From a virus (lineage: Duplodnaviria > Caudoviricetes): DNA of 64,000 nucleotides. This document shows, piece by piece, positions 19,960-20,865 of the stretch. A program made the translations under genes and the position numbers. How positions within the stretch are numbered: position 1 is the stretch's first letter; each line of letters starts with the position of its first letter. The DNA is taken from IMG/VR virus record IMGVR_UViG_3300027715_000011, positions 1 through 64,000 of that record; one strand, 5' to 3'. Below the pieces are notes generated by a model. The model worked only from the letters and a program-made list of their open reading frames with translations, searched no databases and was not told the origin of the DNA.

Positions 19960-20865
19960 GTGTAGCAACGCAGGGAGCATAAGACCCAAAACGGGAGCAT
20001 GTTCACCAGAATAGGGTGATGGGGCTCTCACCCATGATTAGCGGGTAACCGCTAAAGCACCTGTGTTCTATATCAGAACATTTCGAGAGGCGATCAAACG
20101 CTCCCATGCCATGGGAAACCATGAAGTGCGGGTTCCACCTACAAGGTGTCTCACCGTTCTGATCACATGAAACCACTGCGTCCAGCCAGGCAGTAATCAC
20201 TGGTTGTTAGCCCTTCAAATGGGTAGTTTCGATAGTACTCCTCTGTGCAAGGTCAAAACTTGTATGGGGGATTGTCCTCCATAGTCTTAAGATATGAGAG
20301 GGTATGACGGGCATGTGAATCTTAAATGGTTGCTCGTAAACGGTATAATCCGTTAAGTCTTATTACGTGAATGTAAGACAATGGTTGTAAACCACATCTG
20401 CGCAAATGTGGCAACTGGTAGATCGAAGTTCCCATAAAAATGTTCGATGGGTATGGTTCGAAGACCGACTTCGATTATTTCTTTATCGTGCTGATAGAAA
20501 CGCGATCTACATGACGTGTGGTAAAGAAACGTGTAAATGGTGTGGTGTTACCTGTTACATCCCGGGATTTAACTACGTTAATGATAAAACCGAATTATAA
20601 AACAGATTTATGGGTTTGGAGTTGCAACACATATCCATTCAACGAGACTCTGCCCGTCTCGTTGTTGTCTGTGAAGAGCACGACTGGGTTAAAGTGCAGC
20701 CGATCACGGCGTACATGCAGGTCCGATTCCTGCTCACAGACATGTCCTGTGCCGTGTAACAGGATACAATTTAATGGAGGTTAGAACCTCAGAAAACTCA
20801 CCCTGACGGAAAACAGGGCTCTGCAGGGTGCAGAGAAAACCAAAACCGGGTAGCACGGTACCCAT
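19960..20865 (+). ncRNA. Candidate large structured non-coding RNA (~900 nt)
   Basis: About 930 bp with no credible ORF in an otherwise gene-dense block. Over 15 hairpins plus long-range helices (19993-98/20100-05, 20418-25/20503-10), a GNRA-capped stem (20039-54) and G-U pairs that favour the + strand. Confidence 0.7.
20666..20742 (+). ncRNA. tRNA-like domain lacking a canonical anticodon loop, inside the large RNA
   Basis: Acceptor-like TGTCTGTGA/TCACAGACA, D arm GCAC-GACTGGGTTAAA-GTGC, short arm GCCG-ATCA-CGGC, T arm GCAGG-TCCGATT-CCTGC. Confidence 0.7.

What the first reader, a model, noticed from the sequence alone, without database searches (positions are those of the whole stretch)
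20666..20742. Anticodon-less tRNA mimic embedded in the large RNA
Seen: a cloverleaf with a 9-bp acceptor-like stem, a D arm with GG, a perfect 5-bp T arm (loop TCCGATT), and an anticodon arm reduced to 4 bp plus a 4-nt loop (GCCG-ATCA-CGGC). It cannot decode. Established: tRNA-like domains in Y RNAs, tmRNA and mascRNA act as processing signals or protein-binding decoys. Inference: it may be a site for RNase P/Z cleavage and CCA addition, or a decoy for host tRNA-targeting nucleases and the viral repair enzymes.
Basis: partly seen in the sequence, partly recalled or inferred. Interest (0 to 1): 0.75.

Follow-up and report, generated by a model that had tools for sequence, protein, structure and literature searches.

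The report
Non-decoding tRNA-like cloverleaf in viral leader
A 77-base stretch of this virus folds like a tRNA but has only four bases where the anticodon loop should be, so it cannot decode; it most likely serves as a cutting signal for the host's tRNA-processing enzymes, or is a leftover tRNA gene, and no test here separates the two.

Summary
Window 20666-20742 (+) folds into a cloverleaf with 22 Watson-Crick pairs and no G-U or mismatch. It has a 7+2 bp acceptor stem, a 4-bp D arm with a 12-nt GGG loop, a 4-bp anticodon arm with tetraloop AUCA, and a 5-bp T arm with loop UCCGAUU. ARAGORN does not call it, and Rfam gives only a sub-threshold tRNA-Sec match. A strict cloverleaf descriptor found nothing in 150 dinucleotide shuffles of the window. 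Its exact T arm recurs in real tRNAs of more than 115 viral contigs, so it is tRNA-derived. It is not an assembly artefact and not a conserved ORF.

No homologue of the element was found anywhere, so selection cannot be shown by covariation. The virus looks archaeal, probably with a Methanomicrobiales-like host. The element lies about 40 nt downstream of the only TATA-like promoter motif in the gap, between two abutting hairpins, and 143 nt upstream of the DUF8224 gene, which has no promoter motif of its own. Five related loci carry a real tRNA at that spot.

Best reading (about 0.4): a "t-element", a tRNA-like handle for RNase P and tRNase Z, as in Haloferax and plant mitochondria. Main rival (about 0.3): a tRNA relic. 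The decoy idea has no support. This is the same stretch the scan noted earlier; no look-alike on other DNA is on record.

The parts
20595..20601 (+). TATA-like motif TTATAAA; putative archaeal-type promoter of the leader that holds the element
   Evidence: It is the only plus-strand match in 19900-20900 to a motif that sits 25-34 nt before the ATG of this virus's genes. Promoter use is inferred, not shown.
20640..20664 (+). 9-bp hairpin ending one base before the element
20666..20742 (+). tRNA-like cloverleaf without an anticodon loop. Acceptor 20666-74/20734-42; D arm 20678-81/20694-97; anticodon arm 20699-02/20707-10 with loop AUCA; T arm 20717-21/20729-33 with loop UCCGAUU.
   Evidence: The T arm is identical to those of real viral tRNAs.
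20743..20766 (+). 8-bp hairpin starting at the base after the element
20777..20863 (+). Train of four short perfect hairpins on A-rich linkers (20777-90, 20801-18, 20819-35, 20848-63)
   Evidence: The region 20600-20890 folds with z -4.5.
20886..22925 (+). 679-aa DUF8224 / PHROG 1735 gene, with no TATA-like motif at -25 to -34; presumed to be transcribed through the element
19947..20590 (+).

Best explanation
The element is a tRNA-derived cloverleaf that can no longer decode. It lies in the long structured leader of the DUF8224 gene of what is probably an archaeal virus. It most likely works in cis as a 't-element'. Host RNase P would cut at its 5' side, leaving the upstream 9-bp hairpin as a protected 3' end. 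tRNase Z would cut after the discriminator C20741, creating the 5' end of the downstream mRNA, which would then begin with a hairpin. A non-decoding RNA of about 73-75 nt would be released and may receive CCA.

Shown: the fold, its tRNA ancestry, its inability to decode, and its position.
Inferred: co-transcription, cleavage, and any benefit to the virus.
For: 1. Shape. The parts that RNase P and tRNase Z read are intact: a 7-bp acceptor stacked on a 5-bp T stem, a T loop with U54 and A58, and a D loop with GGG. The dispensable anticodon arm is reduced.

2. tRNA ancestry. The 17-nt T arm is identical to the T arm of ARAGORN-called tRNAs of many isotypes in more than 115 viral contigs. The virus's own tRNA-Thr also has C at position 55.

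3. Not chance. There were 0 hits in 150 shuffles.

4. The pattern of change suggests constraint on the helices. All 22 pairs are Watson-Crick, which only 8.4% of 344 real phage tRNAs achieve. Yet junctions and loops depart from those tRNAs in at least five ways: a 3-nt spacer (4.7% of tRNAs), A8 (3.2%), G14 (14.5%), a 12-nt D loop (none), and a 4-nt anticodon loop (none).

5. Position. It is 40-45 nt past the predicted start of a transcript from the only TATA-like motif in the gap. The DUF8224 gene behind it lacks such a motif, while 9 of the 13 motif hits found within 100 nt upstream of the 32 genes examined lie at -25 to -34.

6. Relatives. In 5 of 145 related loci (three different tRNAs) a real tRNA sits 20-53 nt upstream of the same gene on the same strand. 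In 48 of 145 a same-strand tRNA lies within 3 kb upstream.

7. Hairpins abut both ends of the element.

8. Precedent. t-elements are cut by RNase P and tRNase Z in Haloferax and plant mitochondria (PMC4326828, PMC1920247, PMC3296008).
Against: No homologue of the element exists in the data searched, so there is no covariation or conservation. All three independent assemblies are 100% identical.

Transcription, ends and cleavage are unobserved.

The two extra pairs (-1:73 and -2:74) and the abutting hairpins should slow RNase P and tRNase Z, which prefer unpaired flanks (established knowledge).

The D arm is weak (probability 0.37).

The nearest relatives manage without the element. L198 has a protein-coding gene directly upstream of the DUF8224 gene. 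L003-L005 have small ORFs and an unstructured spacer there.
Confidence: 0.4

Rival explanations
1. It is a functionless relic of a tRNA gene. The site upstream of the DUF8224 gene repeatedly gains and loses tRNAs, and here one lost its anticodon loop and is merely carried along.
For: Real tRNAs occupy this site in 5 of 145 relatives. In the closest relative the whole tRNA operon lies directly upstream of the gene, whereas in the window it is inverted and about 5 kb downstream, so the element sits near a rearrangement junction. The element is a singleton. Several conserved tRNA positions are lost.
Against: It has 22 of 22 Watson-Crick pairs, better than 92% of working phage tRNAs, beside at least five departures in loops and junctions. 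If five or six changes fell at random on 77 nt, of which 44 are paired, all would miss the stems about 1% of the time. This is my estimate, and the ancestor is unknown. No parent isotype can be recognised.
Confidence: 0.3
2. It is an unprocessed structural four-way junction with a T-loop module, forming part of a larger folded RNA or leader.
For: The 9-bp closing helix is abutted by hairpins with 0-1 nt spacing. The whole gap folds far better than shuffles (z -7 and -4.5). tRNAs embedded in GOLLD RNA are a precedent (bioRxiv 10.1101/2024.12.08.627333; PMC12990946).
Against: No Rfam family, GOLLD and ROOL included, matches the gap. The gap is not conserved in relatives. A promoter-like motif splits the gap.
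Confidence: 0.12
3. It is a decoy or sponge. Once released, it would bind host enzymes or toxins that target tRNA, or the virus's own tRNA-repair enzymes.
For: Context only. The record encodes RtcB, two RNA ligases, a Thg1-like enzyme, a CCA-adding enzyme and a phosphoesterase.
Against: With no anticodon loop it cannot bait anticodon nucleases. It is a single copy and is not conserved in relatives that carry the same repair genes.
Confidence: 0.08
4. It is a chance fold, or part of a small protein gene (49-aa ORF 20610-20759 or 88-aa ORF 20518-20784).
For: ORFs cover it.
Against: 0 of 150 shuffles give such a cloverleaf. The 49-aa product has no relative among 5.8 billion proteins apart from itself. 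Its coding score is about 0, against 0.38 +/- 0.15 for this virus's genes. Its ATG is only 15 nt from the TATA-like motif. The 88-aa ORF has no tblastn match in the related loci and a coding score of -0.025; it was not searched in the large protein database.
Confidence: 0.04

Closest known systems
t-elements: tRNA-like processing signals upstream of Haloferax volcanii 5S rRNA and at plant mitochondrial mRNA ends
   Same: They are non-canonical cloverleaves with a well-kept T arm that do not decode. They lie next to another RNA, whose end is made by RNase P or tRNase Z (PMC4326828, PMC3296008, PMC1920247).
   Different: Cleavage is shown for those and not for this one. This one is in a virus, has two extra closing pairs and abutting hairpins, and has no known homologue.
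mascRNA / MALAT1 and MEN-beta tRNA-like 3' modules (Rfam RF01684)
   Same: A tRNA-like fold with a reduced anticodon arm lies beside a long structured RNA. It is cut by RNase P and RNase Z and then receives CCA (established knowledge).
   Different: Those are vertebrate nuclear RNAs. RF01684 does not match this element at E up to 10.
tRNAs embedded in GOLLD RNA of phages and mycobacterial tRNA arrays
   Same: A tRNA lies inside or next to a large ornate viral non-coding RNA near tRNA genes (bioRxiv 10.1101/2024.12.08.627333; PMC12990946).
   Different: Those are real decoding tRNAs. This gap does not match the GOLLD or ROOL models.
Ordinary tRNA pseudogenes in phage tRNA clusters
   Same: tRNA ancestry, no decoding, and a site where tRNAs come and go.
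   Different: The stems are flawless, unlike a decayed gene.
tRNA-Sec / 13-bp acceptor-plus-T tRNAs (Rfam RF01852)
   Same: A long acceptor helix; this was the best Rfam match.
   Different: It scores 17.9 bits against a gathering score of 47. It has no long variable arm, no 6-bp D stem and no anticodon.

Membership tests
Canonical tRNA (Rfam RF00005 / ARAGORN) | 7-nt anticodon loop on a 5-bp stem | tested here: not met
   The loop is 4 nt on a 4-bp stem. Of 344 phage tRNAs, 340 have a 7-nt loop and 4 a 6-nt loop.
Canonical tRNA (Rfam RF00005 / ARAGORN) | Detected by the tRNA detectors | tested here: not met
   ARAGORN makes no call. No tRNA-clan match reaches 29 bits; the best is tRNA-Sec at 17.9.
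Canonical tRNA (Rfam RF00005 / ARAGORN) | Core nucleotides U8 and A14, a 2-nt spacer, and a D loop of 11 nt or fewer | tested here: not met
   It has A8, G14, a 3-nt spacer and a 12-nt D loop.
Canonical tRNA (Rfam RF00005 / ARAGORN) | 5-bp T stem with a 7-nt T loop directly abutting a 7-bp acceptor; GG in the D loop | tested here: met
   The T arm is identical to those of real tRNAs.
t-element (tRNA-like processing signal) | Non-canonical cloverleaf with a conserved T arm and no decoding function | tested here: met
t-element (tRNA-like processing signal) | Co-transcribed with a neighbouring RNA | tested here: inconclusive
   The only support is a promoter-like motif at 20595 and the lack of one before the gene. 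No RNA data could be used.
t-element (tRNA-like processing signal) | RNA ends at its borders; cut by RNase P and tRNase Z | not testable with these tools
   Needs end mapping or enzyme assays.
mascRNA-menRNA (RF01684) | Match to the family model | tested here: not met
   No match at E up to 10.
GOLLD / ROOL large RNAs with linked tRNAs | Match of the surrounding RNA to the family models | tested here: not met
   No match at the gathering score or at E up to 10.
Y RNA / YrlA tRNA-like module | Ro60 (TROVE) partner gene and a family match | tested here: not met
   No TROVE domain in the 76-kb record, which is about 53% complete. No Rfam match.
tRNA-Sec (RF01852) | Score at or above the gathering score of 47; long variable arm | tested here: not met
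   17.9 bits, with the variable arm deleted in the alignment.

The most novel reading that the evidence does not exclude
The element is a selected viral t-element. It would be cut out by archaeal RNase P and tRNase Z to set the ends of a structured leader and the DUF8224 mRNA. The stable CCA-tagged, G-1:C73-bearing, anticodon-less product would then act in trans on tRNA-handling enzymes: the virus's own Thg1-like, CCA-adding and RtcB enzymes, or host tRNA-targeting defences. That would be an archaeal-virus counterpart of MALAT1/mascRNA.
Probability: 0.1. Interest if true: 0.7.

Novelty: new member of a known kind. Interest (0 to 1): 0.3.

Why it matters
If it is processed, this would be the first tRNA-like processing handle described in an archaeal virus. 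It would show that viruses re-use worn-out tRNA genes to shape their transcripts, as plant mitochondria and haloarchaea do. It would also give a defined natural substrate, lacking the anticodon arm, for studying archaeal RNase P and tRNase Z. If it is a relic, it only illustrates the fast turnover of tRNA genes around one conserved gene. With a single sequence and no RNA data, it is a modest lead.

Tried and rejected
- **Homologues of the element.** The covariance model R1 found only the element itself in the virus's own 76-kb record. It found nothing in the whole records of five near relatives. In 100 tRNA-rich loci it found only ordinary tRNAs, at 25 bits or less. Degenerate patterns for the anticodon arm plus T arm gave 0 hits in viral and genome contigs.
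- **Homologues of the gap.**
  - blastn against the phage records found nothing. blastn and nhmmer against 80 related loci found only one 39-nt hairpin.
  - A pattern from the 5' part of the gap gave 0 hits.
  - Protein-anchored scans of viral and metagenome contigs found no relative closer than 78% amino-acid identity.
- **Parent tRNA.** Global alignment to 325 tRNAs scored about as well as shuffled controls outside the T arm.
- **Expression.** No listed holder is on record as RNA. The runs that were laid are contigs of uncertain library type, so nothing can be said about level, ends or strand.
- **Host T arm.** The 11-mer GGTCCGATTCC occurs in Methanoculleus palmolei, but in none of the tRNAs ARAGORN calls there.
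- **attP reading.** No integrase gene in the record.
- **Bacterial host.** I assumed this at first from the Bacillus-phage relatives of the 679-aa protein. I dropped it.
- **'Minihelix' modules** next to a shared hairpin. Their folds are not better than shuffles, so they are reported only in passing.
- **679-aa coincidence.** ORFs 48-2087 and 20886-22925 are both 679 aa long but are unrelated.

Full report
**The observation.** Folded alone, it gives the cloverleaf as the minimum-free-energy structure: -30.4 kcal/mol, z -2.9. The same cloverleaf survives in 149-, 291- and 944-nt contexts. With 150 nt of flank on each side, the pairing probabilities are 0.81-1.0 for the acceptor, 0.95-1.0 for the anticodon arm and 0.90 for the T arm. 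The D arm reaches only 0.37, because a nearly isoenergetic alternative lengthens the anticodon arm. All 22 pairs are Watson-Crick. In tRNA numbering, the 7-bp acceptor (20668-74/20734-40) abuts the T stem as it does in tRNA. The '9 bp' comes from two further pairs, G-1:C73 and U-2:A74. ARAGORN calls seven tRNAs on the minus strand at 28.9-34.7 kb but not this element. Rfam gives only tRNA-Sec at 17.9 bits, against a gathering score of 47.

**More than chance.** A 5-bp T stem with a loop of the form T-[TC]-C-R-A-N-N, followed directly by a 7-nt strand that pairs with a 7-mer 35-75 nt upstream, finds five true tRNAs and this element in the window. The same search finds 0.15 hits per shuffled window. 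Requiring the D and anticodon hairpins as well gave 0 hits in 150 dinucleotide-preserving shuffles on both strands.

**tRNA ancestry.** In all those checked it is the T arm of an ARAGORN-called tRNA, of isotype Ser, Ile, Arg, Val, Thr or Gln. The virus's own tRNA-Thr also has C at position 55. Outside the T arm, no parent isotype can be recognised.

**Not an artefact, not a gene.** A JGI assembly of sample 3300006930 and a Logan assembly of SRR5693545 both carry the region at 100% identity. A contig from a separate wastewater study spans 20697-20846, which includes the short anticodon arm, without any gap. The 49-aa ORF over the element has no relative among 5.8 billion proteins. The gap ORFs score about 0 on a dicodon measure, where this virus's genes score 0.38 +/- 0.15. 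None has a tblastn match in related loci.

**What kind of virus.** The window is part of a 76-kb IMG/VR record that is about 53% complete. I first took it for a bacterial phage, because the 679-aa protein downstream (DUF8224, PHROG 1735) is 56-58% identical to proteins of Bacillus Herelleviridae phages. Later evidence points to an archaeal host:
- No Shine-Dalgarno sequences precede the genes.
- TATA-like motifs lie 25-34 nt before the start codons.
- The best full-length matches of the PolB are in haloarchaeal tailed viruses, though at only about 25% identity.
- The relatives of its TnpB, at 61-66% identity, lie almost entirely in Methanoculleus, Methanofollis, Methanocalculus and Methanosarcinaceae genomes.

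The record is rich in tRNA-handling genes: a Thg1-like enzyme, RtcB, two RNA ligases, a class II CCA-adding enzyme and a phosphoesterase.

**Context.** The element lies in a 940-nt ORF-poor gap between an MT-A70 methylase gene (ending at 19946) and the DUF8224 gene (starting at 20886). The gap folds far better than shuffles: z -7 for the whole gap and z -4.5 for 20600-20890. No Rfam family matches it, GOLLD and ROOL included. The gap has one plus-strand TATA-like motif, at 20595. That predicts a transcript starting near 20620-20630. The DUF8224 gene has no such motif at the usual distance. I therefore infer a structured leader of about 260 nt with this layout:
- a 9-bp hairpin (20640-64);
- one unpaired base;
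- the cloverleaf;
- an 8-bp hairpin beginning at the very next base (20743-66);
- four more short hairpins on A-rich linkers;
- the ATG.

**Relatives.** Among 145 related loci with enough upstream sequence, five carry a real tRNA 20-53 nt upstream of the same gene on the same strand. These are Pro-GGG, Gln and Pro-TGG. In all, 48 of the 145 have a same-strand tRNA within 3 kb upstream. In the closest relative (78% amino-acid identity, a complete 143.5-kb record) the whole tRNA operon lies directly upstream of the gene. In the window that block is inverted and sits 5-14 kb downstream. The next relatives (69% identity) have MT-A70, then small ORFs and an unstructured spacer with z +1.1, then the gene. 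No relative has a homologue of the element.

**Reading.** The site is one where tRNAs are naturally co-transcribed with the DUF8224 gene and cut away. Here it holds a tRNA-shaped RNA that keeps what RNase P and tRNase Z recognise and has lost what only decoding needs. The pattern of change argues for constraint on the helices. Only 8.4% of 344 real phage tRNAs have all-Watson-Crick stems. Yet this element also departs from them in spacer length, base 8, base 14, D-loop length and anticodon-loop length. By my estimate, about five or six random changes would all miss the 44 paired bases roughly 1% of the time. This argument is soft, because the ancestor is unknown.

The closest known kind is the t-element, a non-decoding tRNA-like structure cut by RNase P and tRNase Z. 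t-elements make the 5' end of Haloferax 5S rRNA and several plant mitochondrial mRNA ends (PMC4326828, PMC3296008, PMC1920247). mascRNA and the tRNAs embedded in GOLLD RNA are looser parallels (bioRxiv 10.1101/2024.12.08.627333; PMC12990946). I put this reading at about 0.4.

Against it:
- There is no conservation and no RNA evidence.
- The extra pairs and abutting hairpins should hinder both enzymes.
- Near relatives do without the element.

The main rival, a recently disabled tRNA left at a rearrangement-prone site, stays at about 0.3. An unprocessed structural junction (0.12), a decoy (0.08) and chance or coding (0.04) follow.

**Verdict.** I file it as a new member of a known kind (tRNA-like element or tRNA relic). 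Interest is modest until RNA ends or further genomes are available.

Noticed in passing
whole window; TnpB genes at 12041-13261(-) and 32343-33485(+): The virus is probably archaeal. TATA-like motifs lie 25-34 nt before start codons, and there are no Shine-Dalgarno sequences. TnpB relatives (61-66% identity) are nearly all in Methanomicrobiales and Methanosarcinaceae genomes. The best full-length PolB matches are in haloarchaeal viruses. Yet its DUF8224 protein is 56-58% identical to Bacillus phage proteins, and its CCA-adding enzyme is the class II type with an HD domain, which I know as the bacterial type.
   Followed up: partly
window 19947-20590: The upstream part of the gap is ORF-poor and hairpin-rich; one hairpin is capped by a GNRA-type GUAA loop. 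It has no Rfam match and no conserved homologue. The whole gap folds with z -7. It may be a separate non-coding RNA.
   Followed up: partly
window 20379-20417; L002 472-520 and 587-628; L199 888-931: A bulged hairpin (GTTGTAAAC, stem-loop, GCAACT) is shared with the closest relative, which has two copies, and with an otherwise unrelated 16.8-kb viral contig. Between those two it is 100% identical over 44 nt. Against the window it shows one compensatory pair change. In L002 and L199 it is followed by a T-arm-like hairpin whose 5-bp stem differs at every pair but still pairs. The 'minihelix' folds as wholes are not better than shuffles.
   Followed up: partly
L198 5143-6388 (closest relative): An ORF-poor leader of about 1.1 kb (the 615 nt folded gave z -3.2) heads the tRNA operon and ends in tRNA-Thr and tRNA-His. 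That tRNA-His has U-1/A73 rather than an encoded G-1:C73, which fits the virus-encoded Thg1-like enzyme.
   Followed up: no
window 29076-29153(-); L036 2698-2772 = L081 2373-2447; L255 835-904; L045 6968-7034 = L047 3434-3500: Other odd tRNAs occur in this gene neighbourhood. Some have 8-bp acceptor stems with 6-nt anticodon loops (ARAGORN 'tRNA-?'). One has a lengthened anticodon arm. One is a 67-nt uncalled cloverleaf with a 6-nt anticodon loop.
   Followed up: partly
L100, L125, L141 and others; L086, L087, L097, L125 and others: In unrelated tRNA-rich viral contigs, conserved tRNA-like elements are missed by ARAGORN. One is a 43-nt acceptor-plus-T-arm minihelix in at least 8 loci, with variants. 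Another is a 77-nt element in 17 loci.
   Followed up: no
window 2127-2510 and 2718-4769: The C-terminal glycyl-radical piece of NrdD (profile positions 507-562) is encoded as a separate 127-aa ORF upstream of the main NrdD body (profile positions 1-512).
   Followed up: no
L310, L315, L316 (Methanoculleus palmolei): Three copies of a repeat of the form GCGAAAGATTGGGG..AGCAGTCAAT...GGTCCGATTCC. They may be ends of IS605/TnpB elements.
   Followed up: no
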